Notes under the pieces: generated by a model | The model's input: the letters and a program-made list of their open reading frames with translations, nothing else | Databases searched by the model: none | What the model was told of the DNA's origin: nothing | Shown: one piece after another, positions 2,388 to 52,220 of the stretch | How the letters are laid out: every line of letters starts with the position of its first letter | Position numbering within the stretch: position 1 is the stretch's first letter | Sequence record: PP761450.1 | DNA from: Escherichia phage LHE287 | Direction: 5' to 3' (one strand) | DNA length: 64,000 nucleotides | Made by a program: the position numbers and the translations under genes

Positions 2388-2600
2388 ATGATCATTTCAG
2401 GTTACACCATCGATCTTTATTGTGAATGCTCAGATTGCAAGGCATGCAGTTGGGCTTGGGAAGAGCATCACCCCAAGTGCGGGTTCAAACAATACACTGG
2501 TGAGACTTGGGGTGAGTGTGTCAAACAGGCGCGAGTAGACGGCTGGCAAATCGGGCGCGACAGGCATACCTGCTACGCCCCTGGCCACAAAAGAAGTTAA
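2388..2600 (+). CDS. Small Cys-rich protein
   Basis: 70-aa ORF with six Cys and one His spaced like a zinc-binding module. Confidence 0.4.
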   Translation: MIISGYTIDLYCECSDCKACSWAWEEHHPKCGFKQYTGETWGECVKQARVDGWQIGRDRHTCYAPGHKRS

Positions 2601-3211
2601 GGTAATAGAAGTCCATCATCCCGCTCCGTTGGGGCGGGTTTAATCTCCTTCCGCATCTGTTCCTTCAGCACCCTGACACGCTCAGCATGTCGGCGATCTT
2701 GCATCTCCATATCCCGTTTCTTTTTCGACTTCAGCTCAAACTGTTTACGAACATCCGGATCTTCACCTGGAACAAGATGCTCTTCGGTCCAGATAATGAA
2801 CTTCCAGTTCTTCTTGGCACACAGTTCGCGGGTGGCCTCCCACTTGGCAGAGTTGACCAACCAGGTTCGCATCGCATTGTTGAATGTCGACTCCTTCATG
2901 TTCGGAGTCTTCTTCGGCTGCTTGATCTGGTCTTTGGGCTTGATCTCAATGAGGGTGACCTGTAGTTCCTCTTGCCCTTCACGGCGCGTCCAGACCTTGA
3001 GGTCCATGAAGTAACGATGGGTGCGCCCGTCGACTGGGGAAATGTAAGGGATTACGGTCTCCTCACTAGACCACTTCACTATCGCGGAGTTCATATCACA
3101 GAACTTGAAAGCCACCAACTCCAGCGAAGAGCGGAAGATGATGTTATTCACATTCCCCTGATACTTCTTGGGATTAACTGGGGTGTACTTCCCCTGAAGA
3201 TAGTTGCTCAT
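2597..3211 (-). CDS. Hypothetical protein, possibly head completion nuclease-like (gp4 family)
   Basis: 204-aa ORF; N-terminal YxG..NIIFRSSLE and HRYFMDL motifs resemble phage head-completion nuclease proteins; function uncertain. Confidence 0.5.
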   Translation of the reverse strand: MSNYLQGKYTPVNPKKYQGNVNNIIFRSSLELVAFKFCDMNSAIVKWSSEETVIPYISPVDGRTHRYFMDLKVWTRREGQEELQVTLIEIKPKDQIKQPKKTPNMKESTFNNAMRTWLVNSAKWEATRELCAKKNWKFIIWTEEHLVPGEDPDVRKQFELKSKKKRDMEMQDRRHAERVRVLKEQMRKEIKPAPTERDDGLLLP

Positions 3212-3261
3212 AATCTAGTCCTAAATAGCCATAACACTCTATCTATTTAAGGGCTGAGACC

Positions 3262-4230
3262 ATGGCCGACTTCAAGAAGACAATCGATAAGATCAAGGTT
3301 CTGAACACGAAGGGATTGTCCCAGGCTCAGAAGCAATTGTCTTATCCCCTGGACGTCACTGGGGGTAAGACCTTGGGACACTATGTCCTATTCAACATCA
3401 ACCGTATCTCCGGTTCATCTTATGGCAACACGGCTACTCAGACTATCGAGAACCCAATACAGAACCCTCTGGGGAATACTCCTGTGGTCTATGGGTCCAA
3501 GTCTGGTTCCATCACCAAATATGCATGGGCGCGCCACGTTCGTTCAAACGAGTCTATCGTACTTTGTATGCCCGAGTCCATTACAACCAACTATGGTGTT
3601 GGCTGGAACGGTAGCGAGCTGGGGTTGGCTGGTATGGGGGCACAGTTCCTTTCCCGCGCCGCCCAAGACATGACTCAGTTTAAACTGGGTGATGCGCTCA
3701 ACGTCGGGAAGGAGATGGGGCGATTCGCTGCCACCAAGGCTATCCAATCTGCGTCGGAGGCTATTCCATTCCTGCCGAGCATTAACGCCCATGACACCCT
3801 TGAGTTGTTCACAGGCACCATGACCAACCCATATGTGGAGATGATCTTCCAGGGTGTTCGCAACCGTGAGATTCCATTTACATTCAAATTCACGCCGCGA
3901 TCTCAGAAGGAAGCCAAGATGGTCCGTGAGATCATCCGCATGTTCAAGATGCACATGTACCCAGAGTACAAGTACAACAAGAATTCCAGCGCGTTTTACT
4001 TGCATCCTTCAACATTCGACATTACGTTCATGGTCAATGGGGAGCGTAACCAGTGGCTGCACCGCATCTCCACTTGTGTGCTTTCCAACATGTTCGTCAA
4101 CGAGACGCCGGACAGTTCATATGCGGTTCACAAAGATGATGGTATCGTGTCCACGCAGGTTGACATGACCTTCATCGAACTGGAGCCTCTGCATAAAGGG
4201 CGCTTTGAAACCGAAGGCGATAGCTTCTAA
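3262..4230 (+). CDS. Virion structural protein, probably baseplate/tail-tube junction (gp48/gp54-like)
   Basis: 322-aa ORF heading a co-directional block that ends in a tape-measure-like gene; size matches T4 gp54; no enzymatic motifs. Confidence 0.5.
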   Translation: MADFKKTIDKIKVLNTKGLSQAQKQLSYPLDVTGGKTLGHYVLFNINRISGSSYGNTATQTIENPIQNPLGNTPVVYGSKSGSITKYAWARHVRSNESIVLCMPESITTNYGVGWNGSELGLAGMGAQFLSRAAQDMTQFKLGDALNVGKEMGRFAATKAIQSASEAIPFLPSINAHDTLELFTGTMTNPYVEMIFQGVRNREIPFTFKFTPRSQKEAKMVREIIRMFKMHMYPEYKYNKNSSAFYLHPSTFDITFMVNGERNQWLHRISTCVLSNMFVNETPDSSYAVHKDDGIVSTQVDMTFIELEPLHKGRFETEGDSF

Positions 4231-29238: not shown

Positions 29239-29246
29239 CATAAATA
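29239..29246 (+). promoter_or_regulatory. Possible late promoter variant (CATAAATA)
   Basis: 7/8 match to TATAAATA about 35 bp upstream of the gp5-like start. Confidence 0.25.
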
Positions 29247-29280: not shown

Positions 29281-30891
29281 ATGTTAGACAATATGAGATG
29301 GTTTTACGGCACCGTTGAAGATGTCAACGATCCAGACCAAAATGGGCGAGTTGCTGTTCGCATATATGGCGTACACACCGACGATCCCGTCCTCCTGCCT
29401 ACGGACAAACTCCCATGGGCGAAGGTACTGATGCCTGCTTCTAACGCCTCCTCTGCTGGTTTAGGTTGGTCTCCAACGGGCATCATTCCTGGTACTGAGG
29501 TTATGGGGTTCGCCCTTGACGAAGCATACCAGAATTTACGCATCACCTGGACTTGGACTGGTTCAAGTCCTACTGATGGTGCCGACACAAACCCACTGGC
29601 TCTCGGGCAGGTCGTTCAATCTGTAGAACGTCAGGCGTACAACGCCGTCACTGACGTTCCTGTGAAACAAGAAGACGAACCACAACCAGATCCACAACCA
29701 CCTGTTGGTGGGTATGATCCAGAGAAGTGGATGACAATCGCTCGTGGCGAATTAGGTATCAAGGAGTATGCCGGAAAGTTCAACAACAACCCGCGCATTA
29801 TAGAATATCACAAGACAACCTCCCTTGGTGCTTCTGAAGATGAAGTGTCGTGGTGTGCGGCGTTCGTGGGTTGGGTTATGATACAGGCTGGATACACGTC
29901 TACACGCTCCGCTCTTGCCCGATCTTACCTTACATGGGGCACTCCACTGTCAGCACCACAATATGGCGCTATCGTAGTCTTCCGGCGTGGTAACAACCCT
30001 ACATTTGGACACGTAGCGTTTGTGCAGAAGTTCGATGCAAACTATGTCTGGTGTATTGGTGGCAACCAATCCGATTCAGTGAAGGTCAGTCGTTTCAGAC
30101 GTTCTTCGGTCTTGGGATATCGTTGGCCTGGTCCTGCTAACACAGCCACAGCCGCGCCTGCGCAGCAGAATGGTAAATGGTCAGAACCTATCCCAGATCG
30201 TACTCCAAAGGAACAACCGACTCCGGCTCCTACTGGGCGAGTACAGGATATTGACAACACTGGAGAAACCATGGTTCCGGCTGCGGGTGGCTCCAAATAC
30301 CCGTACAATAACGTCATGGTGTCCCGAGCTGGGCATATTATGGAAGTGGATGACACCCCTGGTGGTGAACGTCTTCACTGGATGCATAAGTCTGGGTCTT
30401 ACAAGCAAATGTTGCCGGATGGTGATGTGGTCAACAAGTCCGTCAAAGACCACTATGACCTGACGATGTTCAACAAGCGTTATTATGTCGGCGGGGACCA
30501 CAACCTGACGGTCAAAGGAACTGAAGTTCAGCGCAAGACAGGTGAGGTCTATCATTTGCATTCCAACAACTACTCAAATGTGGTTGCGGGCACAGCGCTG
30601 ATGAAATTCAGTGACCTAGCGGAAATGCAAGCGCAGAATATTCTGCGCATTATCTGCGAGACTCTGGAGGTCGGCGGGACATTGAAGGTTCCTAAGATTC
30701 TAACGACTGAGATCATCGCTGACAAACTGACTGTCGCTCAGACGATCAATGGTAACATCATATATGCCGAAGGTGCTGGTCGCGCTTCTTCTCTGTCAGG
30801 TGCAACCCCTGCATCCCCTACGGGTCCGGGTGAGATTGACATCAAGGCAGAATTAAAAGACAATGGTGGTAATTTCGGCACCAAAGAGTAA
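29281..30891 (+). CDS. Baseplate central spike (gp5-like) with CHAP-like peptidase domain and C-terminal beta-helix region
   Basis: N-terminus WFYGTVEDVNDPDQNGRVAVRIYGVHT resembles the gp5 OB-fold domain; central Cys/His region (VSWCAAFVGW...PTFGHVAFV) typical of CHAP-like peptidases. Confidence 0.75.
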   Translation: MLDNMRWFYGTVEDVNDPDQNGRVAVRIYGVHTDDPVLLPTDKLPWAKVLMPASNASSAGLGWSPTGIIPGTEVMGFALDEAYQNLRITWTWTGSSPTDGADTNPLALGQVVQSVERQAYNAVTDVPVKQEDEPQPDPQPPVGGYDPEKWMTIARGELGIKEYAGKFNNNPRIIEYHKTTSLGASEDEVSWCAAFVGWVMIQAGYTSTRSALARSYLTWGTPLSAPQYGAIVVFRRGNNPTFGHVAFVQKFDANYVWCIGGNQSDSVKVSRFRRSSVLGYRWPGPANTATAAPAQQNGKWSEPIPDRTPKEQPTPAPTGRVQDIDNTGETMVPAAGGSKYPYNNVMVSRAGHIMEVDDTPGGERLHWMHKSGSYKQMLPDGDVVNKSVKDHYDLTMFNKRYYVGGDHNLTVKGTEVQRKTGEVYHLHSNNYSNVVAGTALMKFSDLAEMQAQNILRIICETLEVGGTLKVPKILTTEIIADKLTVAQTINGNIIYAEGAGRASSLSGATPASPTGPGEIDIKAELKDNGGNFGTKE

Positions 30892-36718: not shown

Positions 36719-37531
36719 TTAACTGAAACTCTTGTATGCTGCTGCGAGCTTCTTGTCGTACTGGTTCTTGGCATACGCCGGACCATTATAGCGCCGTGCA
36801 AATTCAGACCAGTTCTTGTCCTTCAGAGCCTGCCAGAGCTTGGCGTCAGCCTTGATGAACTTCACGAATGCCATCAAATGAGCACGTTCTCCTGTCAGGA
36901 AGTCGTTGAACATCTCCTTGGCGTTGGCATATCCACAGACCTGGCAGTTGAATCCCATGATCTGGAAGAGACCGTAAGAGGCGCTCTCGTACGCACAATC
37001 CTCATCGATGTTGATGGCCGCATGAAGTCGATCCAACTCCGCGTCGCCTCCCGTGTACCCGCCTGCGGAAGGACTGACCAACGTCGGGTACATATGTCCC
37101 ATGGCATTCGCCCGAGCCTGTCCGAACTTCGCCATCAGCTTCTTATACATGATGTGGCGCTCAAATAATGTCTTGATCTTACCTGACTTGGTGAAGCCCG
37201 TACCGCGCGACTCAACCTGATTCACCGCCTTGACAGAGGCAAGGTCAACACCCAGATCATTAGCAGCATCAATCAGGTCTGACTCAGTTAGATGATCCTG
37301 ATGGGCGTCTCCGGCGTTGCGAATAGCATAGGAGGTCTTTGGACCTACGATACCATCAATGACAAGCCCCGCACCCGCCTGAACAGTCTTGACGGCGTTC
37401 TCTGTTGCCTTGCCAAAGATACCATCAGCGACGAGGGTGAAGCCGATTTTGTTGAGGCTATTCTGAAGTGCCTTCACTTCAGTGCCACGGTTGCCAAGTT
37501 TTAGAATGGCCATAAGAAAATACCTCCACAA
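36719..37531 (-). CDS. Endolysin: N-terminal peptidoglycan-binding domain plus C-terminal muramidase-type domain
   Basis: N-terminal PG_binding_1-like repeats (GTEVKALQNSLNKIGF...DGIFG); C-terminal block with GLFQIMGFN typical of phage N-acetylmuramidase endolysins. Confidence 0.75.
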   Translation of the reverse strand: MWRYFLMAILKLGNRGTEVKALQNSLNKIGFTLVADGIFGKATENAVKTVQAGAGLVIDGIVGPKTSYAIRNAGDAHQDHLTESDLIDAANDLGVDLASVKAVNQVESRGTGFTKSGKIKTLFERHIMYKKLMAKFGQARANAMGHMYPTLVSPSAGGYTGGDAELDRLHAAINIDEDCAYESASYGLFQIMGFNCQVCGYANAKEMFNDFLTGERAHLMAFVKFIKADAKLWQALKDKNWSEFARRYNGPAYAKNQYDKKLAAAYKSFS

Positions 37532-37696
37532 TGAATGCAGAGGTATTTAAAGTGAAAGTGAACTACTCGAGGAGCTGGGGGAAGACTTTGTTCGAATGTG
37601 TCGGCAACCCAGAGAGTGCCAAAGAGGATTGAATGACTGCGATCTCCTCCCAAGACCTGATAGGGGGAGTTGCCTCCCCTATGTTACACGTCTGGA

Positions 37697-39885: not shown

Positions 39886-40293
39886 TTACGACAGCTGTTT
39901 CAGTTTGTAGATCGTCTGGTAACACAGCGTCTTGATTTCATCAAGAGTGTTCTGAAGGTGGGAGTCACACTGCTTGTAGATGCCATCGACGTCTATCACC
40001 ACACTGTTAATATAGGAGATAGGGTCTGGGTTGTACAATTTGATATTCTCGAATGATGGAACATACTGACCACCCGCACCGATGTATGCTTCGGTAAACG
40101 TGTCCAGCAAGTCCTCTAGATCCCCGTAGAACTCCCCGAGTGCCTTGTGCTTGGCATAGGATGTTGTAACGAAGTGTAAGGCATGAGAGTGGGCTATAGC
40201 AAGCAGTCCACGGTTGATGAAAATACTCGCATTGACCATGATGTTGTCCTCAGAAAAAGAAATCCCCCTGTATTTAAGGGGGATTGTAATCAC
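39886..40293 (-). CDS. Hypothetical protein
   Basis: 135-aa ORF. Confidence 0.45.
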   Translation of the reverse strand: MITIPLKYRGISFSEDNIMVNASIFINRGLLAIAHSHALHFVTTSYAKHKALGEFYGDLEDLLDTFTEAYIGAGGQYVPSFENIKLYNPDPISYINSVVIDVDGIYKQCDSHLQNTLDEIKTLCYQTIYKLKQLS

Positions 40294-40324
40294 TGCTTGA
40301 CAAGAACCATCTTGATGGTTTCAC

Positions 40325-40630
40325 TTAGTCTTTGTCGGCAGACTTGCCAAAGAAGAATTCGAAGCCGTCATGGACAGCAACGACTTCCTGACCTTGGGAG
40401 ATACCGTGAGTCTGATCCGGAGTCAGCTTCACCTTGATGGTGTTGCCGTTGGTTAACTCCAGGTTGTAGACATCCGCCTGATTGTCAGGAGTGATCTGGG
40501 TCACGGTAGCGCCGGAACACCACTGGGTGCCGTCAGCTTGCTTGGTGATGGATACGGTCTTACCCTGAACACCAGCATGGGTCTGGGGTTGAGCGGCTTG
40601 TTCTTTAAAATATTCGATAAACGGTTTCAT
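40325..40630 (-). CDS. Hypothetical late protein (101 aa)
   Basis: ATG with GGAG RBS, 25 bp downstream of a minus-strand TATAAATA. Confidence 0.5.
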   Translation of the reverse strand: MKPFIEYFKEQAAQPQTHAGVQGKTVSITKQADGTQWCSGATVTQITPDNQADVYNLELTNGNTIKVKLTPDQTHGISQGQEVVAVHDGFEFFFGKSADKD

Positions 40631-40654: not shown

Positions 40655-40662
40655 TATTTATA
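40655..40662 (-). promoter_or_regulatory. T4-type late promoter TATAAATA
   Basis: Exact TATAAATA on the minus strand upstream of the ATG at 40630. Confidence 0.45.
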
Positions 40663-40686: not shown

Positions 40687-43600
40687 TCAGATCTTAATCT
40701 GCATGTTGCCACCCAGGGACTGCTCGTACTCGCTGTATGCGCCTTCCCCGTAGTCTCGTGCCCACTGGTCAGACTGCTGGGCGCTATCCAGAGTCATCAG
40801 GTTTGGTTCAGTCGGGTTGTAACCCTTGGACTTCGCATCCCGGTACAGAGTCTGCAGGTACTGGTTGGCGCGGTCAATCTGAGCTTTGAACTCGCGATAT
40901 GCCCCTTCAGTTGTGTTGCGGCGGAAGGTGATATCCCAGTCCACGTTCAGAGTCTGACCATCACGGCTTACATAGATCTGCCAATCCAGGTCGCGACCTT
41001 TTGGTGCGTTGTCGCGGATGGAGTCGGCGTATGCCGCAAGGTCGTCCTTCGGATTGTGCGACGTGCTTTTCAGAAGTAGTGCATGACCCATACCACCGTT
41101 TGGCTGAAGAGACCATTTTCCTGTTTCTCTTCCCAGGCGTTCTATGTTGTTGAGTTGGTTTATCGACAATTCAGAAGAGTCAAATAATACCACATCACGT
41201 TTTTTGGGGGTTCTCACATAATGGGTGAGATCAATGTCGATCATCCGGTTTATAAATTCTACCACTTCAGCTTGTTTCTTTGGCAATGTGGTATTGATAT
41301 CCGGCTTGTTTGCCACTTTCTCTAGGCGTTTGTTTTCTGCGCTTATCATGGACAGCATAATTTGTGTAACTTTGCCGTCAGACAAGTTGTAATCATTCCA
41401 AATCACTTCACCTTTATCCGTGATGGTTATATCGTTCAAGAACACCTGGTTTGGGTTGTATGACTGACTTTTCAACTGTTGGAGGTTTCTGGAAAGATAT
41501 TCCATTCTTGATGATATTTCATCAATCATACTCTGGACCACATCTTTGTTCAAAGTAAGTTCATATGTCTTCGGATTGTTCAGGGTACGCCCTTTCTGAG
41601 AGACAATTGGGGTGAATGCAACTTTACCTTTGTCGTAGTAATAGGTCACGTTGGTTATCATAGAAGTACCGGCGTATTTTCCCGTTTCGGGGAAATTGAC
41701 ATCCCACCGAATGGACATACCGTTGACAGTCTCACCAAACACCATGGCGTTGCGCGGTATCTTCAAATTATCCAAAACGGATTGTTCCCCAGAATCAGTG
41801 TTCGGTGGGGTGATATTTTTCTGTTTCCACCAGGCAGTCGCCGCCTTCGTAAACTCTTTAGCCACACCAGACGGAATCGGTGGGAGTTTCAAGGTTTTGG
41901 CCAGGACACCCAAGTCTGAGCCGGACACTTCTGCAAAGGATCTTAATTTTGAGGAAGCACCGTAATACACACCATATACTGGAGTGCCAGAACTTGGTAT
42001 CACATTGATACCACCACCATACATACCTGATTTCTCACGGAACTCCAATACTGGTTGTCCATCAGGTGCCGTTTTGTTATACCAACCAACGACGACGTTC
42101 TCCAAGTTCTTTTCAACGTAGTCCGTTGCTGTTTGAACAAAATCATCAATAATCTTGGGGAATCGTTTTGGATCGCTGATGTCAACATTTTCTAACACAC
42201 CCACAGATGGCGGGAATGCTACCCATTTTTCTGCTGTTGCGTTCCAGGCATTAACAGACATCTGGACTGATTGATTACGTCGCGCAATTGACAGAGTCAG
42301 TTTGTAACGGTCTTTCACAAAGTTCTTGATGTATTCATCATCACCAAATAATTTGCCGCCAGCTGCCTTACTGTAGCCAATGTAATTCAGTAAATTGAGC
42401 CACTTGGATTTGGTAAGTTCACCGCTGTTGTCATTGCCGGTGTCATTGCTGGTGTCAACGTCCACCACCAGAATTATTTGAGAACCTTTCTTGAAAGTGT
42501 ACTGATCGTACATGCCTTTCTTCTGTTTGGTCATGGACGCACCGACCAAGTCTTGGTTGGTGAAGCCGCGCTTCATATTCCAAGATACCTCAGTCCCGTC
42601 TGGATATTTGTCAAAATTATAACCATAGAATACGGCTACTTCTTTCGAACCGCTTATCAGGCGGACGTAGTTTCCACGAATCGGGTCGCGCCCGCTCTTC
42701 AACTCCAGACCAGTGTCCGAGCTGTTGTACCACTCGCGGTTGACTTCGATTTCAGAAGAACCAGCCCCGGTTCCCACACCCCGAGCACCAATAGTGGTGT
42801 TGGAGTCAGCTGGCGCGGACTTCTGCTGAGAACCTTTCCAAAATTTTGTGGACGCCATGGTGAAATCATTCAGGATACTGATAGGGACTTGCGGTAATTT
42901 CAACTGACGAGCAATGAAATCAGCACTTTGCCCACGCACAGGTTTCTCATTCATGTATGCGCCAACATACACGCCCGGCTCATTGTAGTGGGGAGCGATA
43001 TTTGCCGTGTTCATGCGGCCTCTCTCCTTACCAGCCCATAACAACATGGGCTGATCCCCGTTTGAAGTTAATTTCCATCCGTTGGAATTATCAACAGAAG
43101 ATGAAGAACCAGCCCCGGTTCCCAAGTTTGTTTTTCTGGAATCTTCTACGTTTAGATTGAACAATTGTTTCCCAGATGAGTCGGAAGCAATAAATTCATA
43201 TTTCTTGCCACTGCGGGTACTCGTGCTGTTAACTTTGATGTTTCCAGTGTATCTTCCTGGATTCGTTTTTTGCATGAAATTGGTAATTGCAGCAGAAGGG
43301 GTTTTCATCCCAGAAATGATCCTAGCTGTCTCGGGATCAGTGAAAGACACTACGAGTTTGCGCCCATCCATCACTGTGATATCATTTCCAGACACCGAAA
43401 TATCCAAGTCTTCCATTTCAGAACGGAAATCAACACCAACAACAATGGTTTGACCAGTTCCACCCACAACGCCATCAACGCTGTTCTGAACCGGAACGTC
43501 ACCGACCTTGTCTGGATCATCCCAGGTGATACCCTGCATCTTCGGACCGTCAAATACCTGAGCCGGATCTTTACCCTTGCGCACAAGCCACACATAACCA

Positions 43601-44061
43601 CGGTCAGGGACAGGCGCGTAGGTCAGGTCCATGACATTCAGTTTCTGTTTCAGGCCGGACTGGCGGATGATCTTAGGAATCAGGGTCATACCGCGATCCA
43701 GCGCTTTCTTAGAGAAGTTGACAGCAAAGCCATCGATGGTCTTGCCCAGAGGAGTCGCCATGAATTGTTTGGTCGCTTCGATCATGGAAGCGATAACGCG
43801 CATTGGGTTCTTGAAGCGAGCGATGGCGTCAGGATAGACGGAGCCGCGCTTCTGGCCGATGAAAACCTGACGAACGCTCTTACCCAGCCCCTGAGGAGTA
43901 TAGAACTGAATGCGGTATTCCTTATCATCTTCGTCGACGAAGGTAAAGAACACATCGCCTGCGTTCTTCTTACCCATGGTCAGCTCATACGGAGCGGAGT
44001 TGAACGCTTCGTCTAACTGATCTCTTTCCTGCATGAACTGGAGGAAACTTAGCTTTGACAT
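40687..44061 (-). CDS. Large repeat-containing protein of unknown function (1124 aa)
   Basis: Uninterrupted ORF, ATG with AGGAGA RBS; internal duplicated segments (ARQLKLPQVPISILNDFTMASTKFWKG vs AKTLKLPPIPSGVAKEFTKAATAWWKQ; TGAGSS motifs); no recognisable catalytic motif. Confidence 0.7.
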   Translation of the reverse strand: MSKLSFLQFMQERDQLDEAFNSAPYELTMGKKNAGDVFFTFVDEDDKEYRIQFYTPQGLGKSVRQVFIGQKRGSVYPDAIARFKNPMRVIASMIEATKQFMATPLGKTIDGFAVNFSKKALDRGMTLIPKIIRQSGLKQKLNVMDLTYAPVPDRGYVWLVRKGKDPAQVFDGPKMQGITWDDPDKVGDVPVQNSVDGVVGGTGQTIVVGVDFRSEMEDLDISVSGNDITVMDGRKLVVSFTDPETARIISGMKTPSAAITNFMQKTNPGRYTGNIKVNSTSTRSGKKYEFIASDSSGKQLFNLNVEDSRKTNLGTGAGSSSSVDNSNGWKLTSNGDQPMLLWAGKERGRMNTANIAPHYNEPGVYVGAYMNEKPVRGQSADFIARQLKLPQVPISILNDFTMASTKFWKGSQQKSAPADSNTTIGARGVGTGAGSSEIEVNREWYNSSDTGLELKSGRDPIRGNYVRLISGSKEVAVFYGYNFDKYPDGTEVSWNMKRGFTNQDLVGASMTKQKKGMYDQYTFKKGSQIILVVDVDTSNDTGNDNSGELTKSKWLNLLNYIGYSKAAGGKLFGDDEYIKNFVKDRYKLTLSIARRNQSVQMSVNAWNATAEKWVAFPPSVGVLENVDISDPKRFPKIIDDFVQTATDYVEKNLENVVVGWYNKTAPDGQPVLEFREKSGMYGGGINVIPSSGTPVYGVYYGASSKLRSFAEVSGSDLGVLAKTLKLPPIPSGVAKEFTKAATAWWKQKNITPPNTDSGEQSVLDNLKIPRNAMVFGETVNGMSIRWDVNFPETGKYAGTSMITNVTYYYDKGKVAFTPIVSQKGRTLNNPKTYELTLNKDVVQSMIDEISSRMEYLSRNLQQLKSQSYNPNQVFLNDITITDKGEVIWNDYNLSDGKVTQIMLSMISAENKRLEKVANKPDINTTLPKKQAEVVEFINRMIDIDLTHYVRTPKKRDVVLFDSSELSINQLNNIERLGRETGKWSLQPNGGMGHALLLKSTSHNPKDDLAAYADSIRDNAPKGRDLDWQIYVSRDGQTLNVDWDITFRRNTTEGAYREFKAQIDRANQYLQTLYRDAKSKGYNPTEPNLMTLDSAQQSDQWARDYGEGAYSEYEQSLGGNMQIKI

Positions 44062-45897: not shown

Positions 45898-45923
45898 AAG
45901 GGCACGTGGTATTTAGTGCCCTT
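45898..45923 (-). terminator. Intrinsic terminator
   Basis: AAGGGCAC / GTGCCCTT 8-bp stem with T-rich tail on the minus strand. Confidence 0.45.
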
Positions 45924-49032: not shown

Positions 49033-50140
49033 CCAGTTTGTTCAGGCGTTGTTGGGCAGCATTATAGAAGTGCTCTGCCAGTTTACAGACATTGTCGGGG
49101 CGCTGAATGTTGTTCCCGGCGCGGATATCCTTCTTCAGGACTTCCACCGCATCGGTCGCCACCATCTCTTCTGTGACCTCAACCTTCTCGGCAGCAACAG
49201 TAATCGTCCGGTCGATGAAGTTGTAGTCAATACACTTGCATCGCTTCATGGCATCACAGAACTTTTCATAATGCTTAGCATTGTCACGGTTCTGTACAAT
49301 AACCTTAACGATTTGCCCTTCAATACCCAAGCCTGTGTTCAACCATTCCGGGTCGATCCAATTACCTTCTTCATCAGAGGACAACTTGGTGTAATCATAT
49401 TCCACATAGCGGAACAGCGTCTGGTGCTCGGCGTTCGGGATAAAGATCTCACCACCACGCATGTCGTCCACATAGAAGCCACGGTTAGTGCCGTCTTTGT
49501 AGTCTTCCCAGTTCAGGTGATATGGAGTCCCAATATATTGAATGTTACCTTCCATCGAACGGGTATGGAAATGACCCGTGTCGACTCTGGTAAACTTGGA
49601 AAGCAGAGCAACGTCGATCTGACCGTGATCACAAGTAGAAGACTGGTACATTTTGAACCCCGCCAGCTCCAGATGCGCAAAACAGTACTCGGCGTCTGTA
49701 TCTTGTATCGCTTTAATAGACGCATCATAGTTCTCCTTGTTGATCCAAGGCAGCAGTAGAGTCTTGACACCCTCGATCATCACTTCGGTCGGTTCGCTGT
49801 AATAGCAGTACACATCCGGGTCGAGTTCGTTCAGGTAGGATGGCCAGTTGATGCGGTTGGACTCTTCCAGGGTGATGTCATGGTTGCCCACGATACCATT
49901 CCACTTGATACCAGCCGCTTTCAACGCAGGGGTGAGTTCATCCTTCAGCCAGTCTTTGTCACGACCGTACATGAATTTGCGGACATCAAACGTATCACCG
50001 AACTGCCAGACCTCTTTGATATCAGAGTCGGCAAGTTCAGGAATGAAATAATTGATGAGATAGTTCTTGATGAAGTCGCGAACGTATCGAGAACCATTAC
50101 GGCTCCCGATATGCAGATCACCAATTTTAGCAATCGCCAT
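49025..50140 (-). CDS. 47: Mre11/SbcD-like nuclease (gp47)
   Basis: Phosphoesterase motifs GDLH, GDTFD, GNHD; 8-nt overlap with the gp46 start. Confidence 0.85.
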   Translation of the reverse strand: MAIAKIGDLHIGSRNGSRYVRDFIKNYLINYFIPELADSDIKEVWQFGDTFDVRKFMYGRDKDWLKDELTPALKAAGIKWNGIVGNHDITLEESNRINWPSYLNELDPDVYCYYSEPTEVMIEGVKTLLLPWINKENYDASIKAIQDTDAEYCFAHLELAGFKMYQSSTCDHGQIDVALLSKFTRVDTGHFHTRSMEGNIQYIGTPYHLNWEDYKDGTNRGFYVDDMRGGEIFIPNAEHQTLFRYVEYDYTKLSSDEEGNWIDPEWLNTGLGIEGQIVKVIVQNRDNAKHYEKFCDAMKRCKCIDYNFIDRTITVAAEKVEVTEEMVATDAVEVLKKDIRAGNNIQRPDNVCKLAEHFYNAAQQRLNKLDA

Positions 50141-50868
50141 TATTCTGTTTCTCCTTCGGTTTCGTCTAGGCCGAATTGGGTATTGCCGAAGTCCTGATCT
50201 AAATTTTCTTCGACCTGCGCTGGTGTCGTATTCTTAGCCTGCGCCATGTATTGAAGTATGCCTTTCGCAATCTTTTTATTCGATTCTGCGAGACGAGCTG
50301 CTTCCACCTTCTCTCGTTCCTTCTGCCTTTGAGCGTCCTTTTTGTTCTCAAAGTTACCGATACGTTCACGGAAGTCCATGCCAATTCCTGTAGCATCAAC
50401 AAAGATCTCTTGTTGGAAGTCGGGATCGTCTGCCAGGCCTGAGAACCCACCCGCCTCTTCAAATGAGCGCAATTTAATGTACGTGTGCTCTTCTTCGATG
50501 TTCAGTTTACGGGCAAATGAGCGATCAGCACACATGGTCACCCAAGAGAAGAAGTTGATCTTCCCTTTCTTTCCAATGTGTTCGACGTCAAATGTGTGGA
50601 GGTAGCGCAGGATGTTGACTATTGCTTCAGAGACCATGTCTTCACGGAAGGGATAGTCGCGATAGTTGTAGCGGGTACTCATCTTGGTGATGATGCGCTG
50701 GACCTGCAGAGCAACATAGTTGGGGATCTTTGGAAGCCTGGTGCCTTCAGCCAGAGCCTTCTTACGAGCAGGGATCCAATCACGAAGGATACTGATGACA
50801 CGCTCGTTATCTTCGTCTGTGAAATATTTGACGACATTCTCCCCTCTGTCCACGAAGTTCATTCCCAT
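50140..50868 (-). CDS. 55: Late-transcription sigma factor gp55-like
   Basis: Central region (EAIVNILRYLHTFD...FFSWVTMCADRSFARK) resembles T4 gp55 (IEASIKGLHNFD...YITQACFNAFVQRIKK); occurrence of TATAAATA late promoters supports this. Confidence 0.55.
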   Translation of the reverse strand: MGMNFVDRGENVVKYFTDEDNERVISILRDWIPARKKALAEGTRLPKIPNYVALQVQRIITKMSTRYNYRDYPFREDMVSEAIVNILRYLHTFDVEHIGKKGKINFFSWVTMCADRSFARKLNIEEEHTYIKLRSFEEAGGFSGLADDPDFQQEIFVDATGIGMDFRERIGNFENKKDAQRQKEREKVEAARLAESNKKIAKGILQYMAQAKNTTPAQVEENLDQDFGNTQFGLDETEGETE

Positions 50869-50879
50869 TGTGATAGCCC

Positions 50880-51407
50880 TCAGATACCGATAAATTCATC
50901 AAAAGATCCAACAACCTTCTTCACCGAGATCTTGTCATTCTCAATCAGGAAGTTGCTGTCGTTTTTGGCTGCTGTAGCCCAGTCATCGGCAAGTTCGTTG
51001 CCTTCGTGTCCCGCATGACCCTTAACCCATTTTAGTTCAACATCACAAATTGAACAAACGAGATCATAGATTCTGAACAGATCTTTGATGAGTTCAACGT
51101 TCTTTTCTGGGAAACCCTGATACTCCCACTTCGTTCGCCATTCGGTGACACTCTTGATGGCATATTGGCTGTCAGACCAAATTGTTGCCTTTGGTATTCT
51201 GCGCTCACCCTTTCCTGAGAATGCCCACAGTAGCTTCAATGCGTTGGTCACACCCAACAACTCGGCGATATTGTTAGTGGAAGGGGGAGGTAGATGGCCG
51301 AAGAACACCTTCCATTGCATACCAGTTATTGGCCTGATGACAAATGCCCAGCCTGCGGCCTGGTTGGTCTTCGGGTTAGAACCCCCGTCAGAATAAATTT
51401 CTATCAT
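50880..51407 (-). CDS. rnh: Ribonuclease H (RNase HI type)
   Basis: MIEIYSDGGS N-terminus as in RNase HI (VEIFTDGSC); conserved DEDD-type carboxylates; ATG at 51407. Confidence 0.75.
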   Translation of the reverse strand: MIEIYSDGGSNPKTNQAAGWAFVIRPITGMQWKVFFGHLPPPSTNNIAELLGVTNALKLLWAFSGKGERRIPKATIWSDSQYAIKSVTEWRTKWEYQGFPEKNVELIKDLFRIYDLVCSICDVELKWVKGHAGHEGNELADDWATAAKNDSNFLIENDKISVKKVVGSFDEFIGI

Positions 51408-51409
51408 GA

Positions 51410-51417
51410 TATAAATA
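51410..51417 (+). promoter_or_regulatory. T4-type late promoter TATAAATA
   Basis: Exact TATAAATA 36 bp upstream of the ATG at 51453, followed by AGAGGAA RBS. Confidence 0.5.
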
Positions 51418-51452
51418 TCCCAAACTGGTTTTATAGAAAGAGGAATGAAACT

Positions 51453-52220
51453 ATGGCACCCCGCGCATATCGTTTCAGTCTCACCGCCCCGCAGATTGAG
51501 CAATTGCTCCTCTCTATCTATGATGCTATCAAGTCAGAAGATATCATCTATGATTATGCTGCAGGTGGGACTGCTGGACAAGTCGCAGCAGCGTCTGCTG
51601 TCAAGAACATGTGGTTGAAGCTCAACGAGATGGTGACAGGCCAAGGTCTCAAAGATGCCATCAACGATGCAGAAGACAGCAACGTGTTCACCGACTATTA
51701 TAAGTCTTTACTGGATCGCGAAGGTTGGAAATTTATTGGATCTCCAGCAGATGAACTTCAGCGAGGCGACATCGATACCTCGAACTTCACAGGTGGTGAG
51801 GTCATTCTACTTCAGAAGAACGCTTCAGGCAACCCGGAATTCCAATACTGGAAGCGAACCCCTGTTGCTGGGGGTGATCCTACCTTTGCATGGGCTTCGG
51901 TCTATGAAGGGAACTCCAATGATTCCAGCATAGAGATTCCCGTGGTTGGTACCAGCGTACTCAAGGACATCCCCAAGGCACTCTTCCATATGATCGAGTT
52001 CAGAGTGCATGTCTACGACGAGACACTGGGTCATTGGCAAGACACAGACGGGAAGGTAGGGTATCGTGGCGAGGATTTGATCTACAGTGTCTACAACCAT
52101 ATTCAGACCAAACCTCTCGCCACCATTGACTTCAGCCAAGATACGGACAATATGACGGTTTCTGTGACGTCGTTGGAACCGAATGTCAAGTGCCATCTGT
52201 CCTTCGTTGCGGGTTACTAA
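51453..52220 (+). CDS. Late protein of unknown function (255 aa), probably structural
   Basis: ATG at 51453 with RBS directly downstream of a late promoter; the track ORF from 51294 overlaps rnh. Confidence 0.55.
   Translation: MAPRAYRFSLTAPQIEQLLLSIYDAIKSEDIIYDYAAGGTAGQVAAASAVKNMWLKLNEMVTGQGLKDAINDAEDSNVFTDYYKSLLDREGWKFIGSPADELQRGDIDTSNFTGGEVILLQKNASGNPEFQYWKRTPVAGGDPTFAWASVYEGNSNDSSIEIPVVGTSVLKDIPKALFHMIEFRVHVYDETLGHWQDTDGKVGYRGEDLIYSVYNHIQTKPLATIDFSQDTDNMTVSVTSLEPNVKCHLSFVAGY

What the first reader, a model, noticed from the sequence alone, without database searches (positions are those of the whole stretch)
51405..51455. Late promoter TATAAATA packed head-to-head against the RNase H start codon
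The exact T4 late-promoter octamer (51410-51417) lies 3 bp from the rnh ATG on the opposite strand and 36 bp upstream of a 255-aa gene of unknown function, which is thereby predicted to be late or structural. Two further exact copies lie at 23114-23121 and 40655-40662. Together with the gp55-like sigma factor this marks at least three late transcription units in a window that is otherwise mostly early or middle genes.
Basis: partly seen in the sequence, partly recalled or inferred. Interest (0 to 1): 0.4.

Follow-up and report, generated by a model that had tools for sequence, protein, structure and literature searches.

The report
Known late promoter before gp9-like gene
The TATAAATA next to the RNase H start codon is very probably a real late promoter of this Ag3/ViI-like (Ackermannviridae) phage, driving a virion protein gene; the same site is already annotated in a published relative, so it is correct but ordinary.

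Summary
TATAAATA occurs exactly three times in the window, at the stated coordinates (0.62 expected). All three copies are intergenic and sit 24-35 nt upstream of a same-strand start codon.

The window is an Agtrevirus, about 94% identical to Shigella phage Ag3. The late-promoter reading is supported:
- gp55 and gp33 homologues are encoded in the window.
- The site is conserved next to the rnh start codon in several Ackermannviridae genera.
- Dickeya phage LIMEstone1 (HE600015) has an identical spacer and already annotates a "putative late promoter" there.
- The LIMEstone1 orthologues of all three downstream genes were found in virions by mass spectrometry.

One correction is needed. The family's late element is the hexamer TAAATA, most often preceded by AC or CC, not the T4 octamer. 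In Ag3, 30 of 44 TAAATA copies are intergenic, and 26 of those lie 23-46 nt before a start codon, mostly of structural genes. By this rule the window holds about ten late promoters, not three.

One addition: the 255-aa product is a distant homologue of T4 baseplate protein gp9. It matches in fold and weakly in sequence profile, although a 2024 review says the family lacks gp9-gp11.

The promoter is already known. Interest is low, and the gp9 link adds a little.

The parts
51410..51417 (+). Late-promoter -10-like element TATAAATA (family core TAAATA = 51412-51417). It lies 2 bp from the rnh start codon on the other strand.
   Evidence: An identical site is annotated 'putative late promoter' in LIMEstone1. 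The site is conserved across genera.
51423..51424 (+). Predicted transcription start, inferred only. It assumes T4 geometry, with the octamer at -13 to -6, and gives a leader of about 29 nt.
   Evidence: Inference from the T4 rule quoted in PMC1524935. Not measured.
51440..51444 (+). Shine-Dalgarno GAGGA, 8 nt before the ATG.
51453..52220 (+). Gene for a 255-aa virion protein (PHROG 3833; Ag3 orf124; LIMEstone1 ORF093). It is a distant gp9-like baseplate protein.
   Evidence: mass spectrometry of the orthologue. Fold and profile matches to T4 gp9.
50880..51407 (-). RNase HI gene (175 aa). Its 5' untranslated region must overlap the late promoter and the leader of the opposite gene.
50140..50868 (-). 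gp55-like late sigma factor, the protein expected to read the element.
   Evidence: (PHROG 234, E 5.7e-52).
25499..25741 (-). gp33-like late transcription co-activator.
   Evidence: 95% identical to Ag3 gp33, whose annotation is.
23114..23121 (+). Second TATAAATA, 34 nt before the GTG of the gp54-like baseplate tail-tube initiator (23156-24100). This is the published Ag3 'Porf072' sequence.
   Evidence: The LIMEstone1 ORF50 orthologue is 93.6% identical and confirmed in virions.
23135..23142 (-). CTTAAATA on the opposite strand, 32 nt before the gp2-like gene (22398-23102). It forms an interleaved divergent promoter pair with the previous element.
   Evidence: Annotated as a late promoter in LIMEstone1.
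40655..40662 (-). Third TATAAATA, directly after a terminator hairpin and 24 nt before the 101-aa ORF 40325-40630.
   Evidence: The orthologous site is annotated as a late promoter upstream of the virion protein ORF080 in LIMEstone1. Vi01 has GCTAAATA here.
3220..3227 (+). CCTAAATA, 34 nt before gp48 (3262-4230).
3244..3251 (-). CTTAAATA, 32 nt before gp4 (2597-3211).
29239..29246 (+). CATAAATA, 34 nt before gp5 (29281-30891). This is the published Ag3 'Porf084'.
37544..37551 (-). TTTAAATA, 30 nt before the endolysin gene (start at 37513).
   Evidence: Annotated as a late promoter in LIMEstone1.
40271..40278 (-). CTTAAATA, 31 nt before the 117-aa gene (39886-40239). That gene is the orthologue of LIMEstone1 virion protein ORF078.
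45910..45917 (-). ACTAAATA, the commonest family form, upstream of a small ORF similar to Ag3 orf114.1. The assignment is weaker because the spacing is 56 nt.

Best explanation
The octamer at 51410-51417 is the -10-like element of a T4-type late promoter. Late in infection the phage's gp55-like sigma factor (gene at 50140-50868), helped by a gp33-like co-activator (25499-25741) and probably the sliding clamp, directs host RNA polymerase core to the TAAATA core. Transcription would start about 6-7 nt downstream, near 51423. The resulting mRNA has a leader of about 29 nt with a GAGGA ribosome-binding site and encodes a 255-aa virion protein, a distant relative of T4 baseplate protein gp9. Shown here: the motif and its geometry, its recurrence upstream of structural genes, its conservation across genera, the presence of gp55 and gp33, the presence of the orthologue in virions, and the gp9-like fold. 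Inferred: recognition by gp55, the start site, late timing and the baseplate location. The tight abutment to the rnh start codon is one case of a general habit of these genomes, which place late promoters inside 45-53 bp divergent spacers so that one gene's promoter lies in the other gene's 5' leader.
For: - Exact motif, intergenic, correctly oriented, 35 nt before the start codon.
- In the complete Ag3 genome, TAAATA occurs 44 times and 30 copies lie in the 7.6% of the genome that is intergenic. AT-only hexamers average 32% intergenic (binomial p = 7e-7). Of the 30, 26 lie 23-46 nt before a same-strand start codon. These include gp22, gp18, gp14, gp6, tailspike genes, gp48, gp4, gp2, gp54, gp5 and the endolysin gene.
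- 14 of 26 late genes with their own upstream spacer carry the motif, against 2 of 21 replication genes (Fisher p = 0.002).
- The site is kept next to the rnh start in Limestonevirus, Taipeivirus and Miltonvirus (TATAAATA), Kuttervirus (TATAAGTA), Vapseptimavirus (TCTAAATA) and Vibrio phage K476 (ACTAAATA).
- gp55 and gp33 homologues are in the window. A gp45 homologue is present in Ag3.
- LIMEstone1 annotates this very site as a putative late promoter, and its ORF093 (92.5% identical) is a virion protein by mass spectrometry.
- The gene sits inverted within a block of minus-strand replication genes, as the + strand baseplate genes gp48/53, gp54, gp26/5/25 do.
Against: No transcript 5' ends or timing data exist for any Ackermannviridae phage in the searched literature, and the CBA120 paper states that the family's late promoter had not been identified. 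The full T4 octamer is not conserved: positions 1-2 vary, and Vi01 has G at position 6 of this site. The conservation could partly reflect the rnh translation-initiation region that shares these bases. The structure model is only moderately confident (mean pLDDT 65.5; residues 1-117 largely below 50, with segments under 50 at 1-26, 61-67, 73-107 and 111-117). The sequence-level gp9 signal is weak: hhalign probability is 53%, and the Pfam hits are below the curated threshold.
Confidence: 0.85

Rival explanations
1. The element is a host sigma-70 'extended -10' promoter (TGnTATAAT-like). The 255-aa gene would then be transcribed early by unmodified host polymerase, either instead of or in addition to late transcription.
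For: The window reads TGATATAAA at 51407-51415, which matches TGnTATAAT at 8 of 9 positions. The same 14-mer, TGATATAAATATCC, recurs upstream of another Ag3 gene.
Against: The sigma-70 scan reports no site in the spacer, and by my own reading the best -35 candidate matches only 3 of 6. The TG comes from the complement of the rnh ATG. It is not kept at the right spacing in Vi01 or 3M (TG directly abuts TATAA), and it is CG in Taipeivirus, whereas TAAATA/TAAGTA is kept. The product is a virion protein, and the same core precedes more than 20 structural genes that lack any TG.
Confidence: 0.08
2. The octamer is not a promoter. It is an AT-rich stretch kept because it forms the translation-initiation region just upstream of the rnh start codon, and its match to the T4 consensus is chance.
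For: The bases lie 2-9 nt upstream of the rnh ATG on the other strand, where AT-rich sequence is common. The count of three octamers alone is only marginally above chance.
Against: The same core sits at a fixed distance (23-46 nt) before 26 genes in Ag3, most of which have no divergent neighbour. Orientation and spacing relative to the 255-aa gene are kept in genera where the flanks have diverged. The two other window copies do not abut any start codon.
Confidence: 0.05

Closest known systems
LIMEstone1 'putative late promoter' upstream of ORF093 (GenBank HE600015, 68385-68390; Adriaenssens et al. 2012, PMC3296691)
   Same: It is the orthologous site. The 84-nt stretch from the rnh 5' end to the start of the downstream gene is identical to the window. 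The gene order gp55-rnh / ORF093 / helicase is the same, and the product is 92.5% identical.
   Different: It is a different phage genus (Limestonevirus against Agtrevirus) and host. The record marks only the hexamer TAAATA and rests on similarity to T4, not on transcript mapping.
Bacteriophage T4 late promoters (TATAAATA at -13 to -6, read by gp55 with gp33 and the gp45 clamp)
   Same: A single AT-rich -10-like element with no -35 element. It lies a few tens of nt before late structural genes, and gp55, gp33 and gp45 homologues are present. T4 gene 9 itself has a terminator hairpin followed by TATAAATA 31 nt before its ATG, the same layout as the window's site at 40655.
   Different: In this family only the last six bases (TAAATA) are conserved. 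C rather than A is preferred at the second position (AC 8, CC 5, TA 4 of 30 intergenic sites in Ag3). A pyrimidine-rich run (YCYY) usually follows. TAAGTA and TAATTA variants serve gp23, gp19 and gp20.
Aeromonas phage Aeh1 late promoters, consensus CTAAATA (Nolan et al. 2006, PMC1524935)
   Same: The core is the same, with C at -12 instead of the T4 A. It was also found by looking upstream of orthologues of T4 late genes.
   Different: Aeh1 is a T4-like phage outside the Ackermannviridae. Here C at that position is only a preference, and TA, CA and CT are also used.
Ag3 predicted late promoters Porf072 and Porf084 (Anany et al. 2011, PMC3121705, Table S2)
   Same: Porf072 is the window's 23114 site and Porf084 is its 29239 site, with nearly identical sequence.
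   Different: That paper did not list the rnh/orf124 site or the 40655 site. It assigned Porf072 to gp2, although the TATAAATA points toward gp54.
T4 gp9, the baseplate wedge protein that connects the long tail fibres and triggers contraction (PDB 1qex, 1pdp)
   Same: Similar size (255 against 288 aa), a late virion protein, and the best structural and profile match over the C-terminal beta-sandwich domain.
   Different: There is no pairwise sequence similarity, and no Pfam hit for the window protein itself. The N-terminal half is not confidently modelled. The gene lies far from the baseplate gene cluster. These phages carry a branched tailspike complex rather than long tail fibres.

Membership tests
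T4-type (gp55-dependent) late promoter | AT-rich -10-like element matching TATAAATA, with no -35 element needed | tested here: met
   Exact octamer at 51410-51417. The sigma-70 scan reports no promoter in the spacer.
T4-type (gp55-dependent) late promoter | Lies a few tens of nt upstream of, and points toward, a late (virion or lysis) gene | tested here: met
   It lies 35 nt before the 255-aa gene. The orthologue of that gene is a mass-spectrometry-confirmed virion protein.
T4-type (gp55-dependent) late promoter | The phage encodes gp55, gp33 and the gp45 clamp | tested here: met
   gp55 is in the window (PHROG 234, E 5.7e-52), and gp33 is in the window. gp45 lies outside the window but is present in the 94%-identical Ag3 genome.
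T4-type (gp55-dependent) late promoter | The motif recurs upstream of structural genes genome-wide and is rare elsewhere | tested here: met
   This holds for the core TAAATA: 30 of 44 copies are intergenic, 26 are positioned 23-46 nt before a start codon, and late genes are enriched over early genes with p = 0.002. It does not hold for the full T4 octamer, which occurs only 4 times in Ag3.
T4-type (gp55-dependent) late promoter | Conserved at the orthologous position in related phages | tested here: met
   Found in seven lineages from five named Ackermannviridae genera, Vapseptimavirus and an unclassified Vibrio phage. Positions 1-2 vary, and there is one A-to-G change in Vi01.
T4-type (gp55-dependent) late promoter | Initiation 6-7 nt downstream, only late, and dependent on gp55, gp33 and replication | not testable with these tools
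   No transcriptome or 5'-end data for the family were found in the searched literature.
T4 gp9 baseplate protein | Fold of the C-terminal beta-sandwich domain | tested here: met
T4 gp9 baseplate protein | Sequence or profile similarity to gp9 (Pfam T4_gp9_10_C) | tested here: inconclusive
   The window protein has no Pfam hit, and the shallow profile finds nothing in the PDB. The deeper profile A2 hits only T4 gp9 (E 4.7e-4). hhalign gives E 1.4e-4 with probability 53%. Four of 38 members hit T4_gp9_10_C at best E 0.004.
T4 gp9 baseplate protein | N-terminal coiled coil and homotrimer | tested here: inconclusive
   The N-terminal half of the model, residues 1-117, is largely at pLDDT about 50 or below, and only a monomer was modelled.
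T4 gp9 baseplate protein | Sits at the baseplate periphery and anchors fibres or spikes | not testable with these tools
   Only presence in the virion is known, from LIMEstone1 ORF093. A 2024 review states that the family lacks Gp9-Gp11.
Sigma-70 extended -10 promoter | TGnTATAAT with the TG kept at -15/-14 | tested here: not met
   The window has TGATATAAA, but the TG is mis-spaced in Vi01 and 3M and absent in Taipeivirus, while TAAATA is kept.

The most novel reading that the evidence does not exclude
The 255-aa late gene between rnh and the helicase gene encodes the 'missing' gp9-type peripheral baseplate adaptor of Ackermannviridae. This would be the protein that anchors or triggers the branched tailspike complex, in a family currently described as lacking Gp9-Gp11. 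A second, less likely layer concerns regulation. No promoter for rnh-gp55-gp47-gp46 is visible in the 45-bp spacer, so that operon must be read through the antisense of this gene. gp55-dependent firing of the late promoter would then collide with, or produce antisense RNA to, the transcript that encodes gp55 itself, giving negative feedback on the late sigma factor.
Probability: 0.4. Interest if true: 0.45.

Novelty: already known. Interest (0 to 1): 0.2.

Why it matters
For the promoter itself it matters little. It confirms that a sequence-only reader can find real late promoters in a T4-related phage. It also shows the limit of using the T4 octamer, which catches only about a third of this phage's late promoters because the family uses (A/C)CTAAATA-like elements.

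Two by-products are of practical use. The first is a simple rule for annotating late genes in the roughly 270 sequenced relatives: TAAATA, or less often TAAGTA or TAATTA, 23-46 nt before a start codon. The second is a candidate identity (gp9-like) for a conserved virion protein of unknown function, in a family whose baseplate periphery and tailspike attachment are not yet understood and which is widely used for biocontrol and host-range engineering.

Tried and rejected
- Pfam gave nothing for the 255-aa protein, and PHROGs placed it only in PHROG 3833, a family of unknown function.
- A shallow family profile (A1) found nothing in the PDB, and hhalign against T4 gp9 was insignificant with A1. 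Only the deeper profile A2, built after the 1.8-billion-protein search, gave a signal.
- Literature searches for Ackermannviridae transcriptomes or a defined late-promoter consensus found none. A search for the phage behind PDB 9f4a was uninformative.
- I looked for a promoter for rnh in the spacer. The sigma-70 scan found nothing there, and hits elsewhere were no more frequent than in shuffles (6 against 4.2).
- I considered the minus-strand TATAAAAC (51435-51428) as a second, divergent late promoter by analogy with the gp4/gp48 and gp2/gp54 pairs. I rejected it because its core has two mismatches, its spacing is wrong (20 nt) and it is not conserved in Vi01.
- I considered the inverted TAAATAGCCC pair at 26869/26906. 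I treat it as the arms of a hairpin whose promoter role is uncertain, although LIMEstone1 annotates one arm as a late promoter.

Full report
**What is there.** The window belongs to an Agtrevirus (family Ackermannviridae). It is 98.6% identical over the tested 5 kb to Escherichia phage vB_EcoM-ZQ1 and about 94% to Shigella phage Ag3. The finding's coordinates are accurate.
- TATAAATA sits at 51410-51417 on the + strand.
- The start codon of a 175-aa RNase HI gene on the minus strand ends at 51407, so 2 bp intervene.
- A 255-aa ORF starts at 51453, 35 nt downstream of the octamer, behind a GAGGA ribosome-binding site.
- ATG 51407 is the true rnh start, because the Pfam RNase_H match begins at residue 3 of that protein. 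The Ag3 RefSeq annotation starts further in and so cuts off the N-terminus.
The expected number is 0.62, and 2 of 100 shuffles reach three.

**Is it more than chance?** The count alone is marginal, but position is decisive.
- All three copies are intergenic and end 24-35 nt before a same-strand start codon.
- About 1.6% of strand positions satisfy this. All three doing so has probability about 4e-6, or about 2e-4 after a generous correction for AT-rich spacers.
- In the full 158-kb Ag3 genome there are only four TATAAATA. All four are intergenic and lie 25-35 nt before a start codon. Three are the orthologues of the window's sites.

**What the family's late promoter looks like.** I printed the upstream regions of Ag3 structural genes. 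The recurring element is not the T4 octamer but its last six bases, TAAATA.
- The two bases in front of the 30 intergenic copies are AC in 8, CC in 5, TA in 4, CT in 2 and CA in 2, with single occurrences of nine other dinucleotides. A pyrimidine-rich run usually follows.
- TAAATA occurs 44 times in Ag3 counting both strands, and 30 copies lie in the 7.6% of the genome that is intergenic. AT-only hexamers average 32% intergenic, giving binomial p = 7e-7.
- Of the 30 intergenic copies, 26 lie 23-46 nt before a same-strand start codon. The genes include gp22, gp18, gp14, gp6, three tailspike or structural genes, gp48, gp4, gp2, gp54, gp5 and the endolysin gene.
- gp23, gp19 and gp20 carry TAAGTA or TAATTA at the same distance.
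- Among genes with their own upstream spacer, 14 of 26 late genes have the motif, against 2 of 21 replication or nucleotide-metabolism genes (Fisher p = 0.002).
- The same C-containing consensus, CTAAATA, was published for the T4-like Aeromonas phage Aeh1 (PMC1524935).
- The Ag3 paper searched with TATAAATA allowing one mismatch and listed three sites. Two of them are the window's 23114 and 29239 sites (PMC3121705).
- The CBA120 paper said the family's late promoter had not been identified (PMC3184105).
- Applying the TAAATA rule, the window has about ten late promoters, not three. They precede gp48, gp4, gp54, gp2, gp5, the endolysin gene, two genes of the ORF078-080-like virion protein cluster, a small ORF, and the focal gene. 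A GCTAATTA variant precedes the 1124-aa ORF.

**The focal site across relatives.** The element stays pressed against the rnh start codon in every lineage that keeps the rnh/ORF adjacency:

| Lineage | Sequence at the site |
|---|---|
| Limestonevirus | identical to the window over 84 nt |
| Taipeivirus | TATAAATA |
| Miltonvirus | TATAAATA |
| Kuttervirus Vi01 | TATAAGTA |
| Vapseptimavirus BX-1 | TCTAAATA |
| Vibrio phage K476 | ACTAAATA |

The first two positions therefore vary and the TAA(A/G)TA core is kept, as expected if the core is the functional part. At the window's 40655 site Vi01 has GCTAAATA, while at the 23114 site it keeps TATAAATA.

**Already in the public record.** GenBank HE600015 (LIMEstone1) annotates a 'minus_10_signal, putative late promoter' on exactly this hexamer. 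It labels the downstream ORF093 'unknown structural protein; confirmed structural protein'. The paper's Table 2 reports ORF093 (28.3 kDa) in purified virions with 40.8% coverage and 8 unique peptides (PMC3296691). ORF093 is 92.5% identical to the window protein.

They are ORF50/gp54 (24.5% coverage, 7 peptides; 93.6% identical) and ORF080 (12.2%, 2 peptides; 96% identical over the part that the window retains). Late timing has not been measured in any family member that I could find.

**Mechanism.** The window encodes the gp55-like late sigma factor two genes away (PHROG 234, E 5.7e-52) and the gp33-like co-activator. The clamp gp45 is present in Ag3 outside the window's range. By analogy with T4 (octamer at -13 to -6), transcription should start near 51423 and give a leader of about 29 nt. 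This step is inferred, not shown.

The gene is a + strand island in a long run of minus-strand replication genes. The + strand baseplate gene groups gp48/53, gp54 and gp26/5/25 are arranged the same way, although the main structural block (gp23 to gp6) lies on the minus strand. The close packing against rnh is one case of a general layout. The gp4/gp48 and gp2/gp54 pairs share 50-53-bp spacers in which two opposed TAAATA elements are interleaved, each lying in the other gene's leader. Here only one of the two genes has the element. No convincing promoter for rnh lies in the spacer, and the 255-aa gene overlaps the convergent helicase gene by 4 nt with no terminator. The rnh-gp55-gp47-gp46 genes are therefore probably read through the antisense of the late gene. 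Whether late firing then interferes with gp55 mRNA is speculation.

**The downstream gene.**
- The window protein has no Pfam hit, and its only PHROG is a family of unknown function.
- An AlphaFold2 model built from 26 homologues is confident only for the C-terminal domain (residues 160-255, pLDDT above 90; mean 65.5).
- The best Foldseek match in the PDB is T4 gp9 (1qex_A, E 3.5e-7). It is followed by a Klebsiella T4-like phage baseplate chain and by the particle-binding N-terminal domains of tailspikes.
- BFVD matches include the entries 'Baseplate wedge subunit [Aeromonas phage phiAS4]' and 'Gp9plus10 baseplate wedge tail fiber connector...' of Aeromonas phage 65.
- At sequence level a shallow profile found nothing. 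After the search of 1.8 billion representatives enlarged the family to 58 clusters, the deeper profile's only significant PDB hit is T4 gp9 (E 4.7e-4, colinear over gp9 residues 174-280).
- With the deeper profile hhalign gives E 1.4e-4, and 4 of 38 members touch Pfam T4_gp9_10_C.

Taken together, the protein is probably a distant gp9 homologue, at least in its C-terminal domain. A 2024 review states that Ackermannviridae lack Gp9-Gp11 (PMC11721090), so this is a small new lead. T4 gene 9 also has its own terminator-plus-TATAAATA promoter.

**Rivals.**
- A sigma-70 extended -10 reading (TGATATAAA) fits the window sequence. However, it has no -35 element, and its TG is not conserved at the right spacing in other genera.
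- A pure 'rnh translation-initiation region plus chance' reading cannot explain the same core at a fixed distance before 26 Ag3 genes.

**Verdict.** The T4 octamer is a minority form of the family's promoter, and the window holds about ten late units rather than three. The promoter and the virion status of its product are already published for an orthologue with an identical spacer, so the finding is ordinary. The gp9-like assignment is the only part that goes beyond the record.

Noticed in passing
window 3212-3261 and 23103-23155: Two 50-53-bp divergent spacers (gp4/gp48 and gp2/gp54) each carry two opposed TAAATA elements 16-19 bp apart. Each promoter therefore lies inside the other gene's 5' leader, and the predicted start sites nearly coincide. 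The arrangement is conserved in Ag3 and Vi01.
   Followed up: partly
window 40240-40630: The 101-aa ORF after the 40655 promoter corresponds to only the N-terminal 100 residues of a 189-aa virion protein (Ag3 orf107, LIMEstone1 ORF080). Compared with Ag3, about 480 bp are missing. The deletion also removes the next small gene (ORF079-like).
   Followed up: partly
window 40687-44061 (-): A 1124-aa ORF combines regions similar to three separate Ag3 genes (orf110, orf110.1 and orf109) and to LIMEstone1 ORF081, a mass-spectrometry-confirmed virion protein. Its centre is variable and partly repeated. It is preceded by a terminator and a GCTAATTA element 36 nt before the ATG.
   Followed up: partly
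Ag3 genome (L003-L006), all TAAATA sites: The hexamer is usually followed by a pyrimidine-rich run (CCCC, CCTT, TCTC or TCCC). This could be an extra recognition or initiation-region feature.
   Followed up: no
window 51407-51420; Ag3 153183-153196 (L006 3183-3196): The 14-mer TGATATAAATATCC is shared by the focal site and by the fourth Ag3 TATAAATA site. That site precedes a 55-aa membrane protein (orf248).
   Followed up: no
L002 5371-5458 (Ag3 71722-71809): The Ag3 RefSeq annotation starts the RNase HI gene at an internal ATG (146 aa). This removes the N-terminal strand that the Pfam RNase_H model matches. The 175-aa version used in other records fits the domain.
   Followed up: yes
window 26869-26911: An inverted pair of TAAATAGCCC forms a hairpin between the RuvC-like gene and its neighbour. 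LIMEstone1 annotates one arm as a late promoter, but it could equally be a bidirectional terminator.
   Followed up: no
window 52217-52220: The 255-aa late gene and the convergent helicase gene overlap by 4 nt at their stop codons with no terminator between them. Late and early or middle transcripts must therefore run antisense into each other.
   Followed up: no
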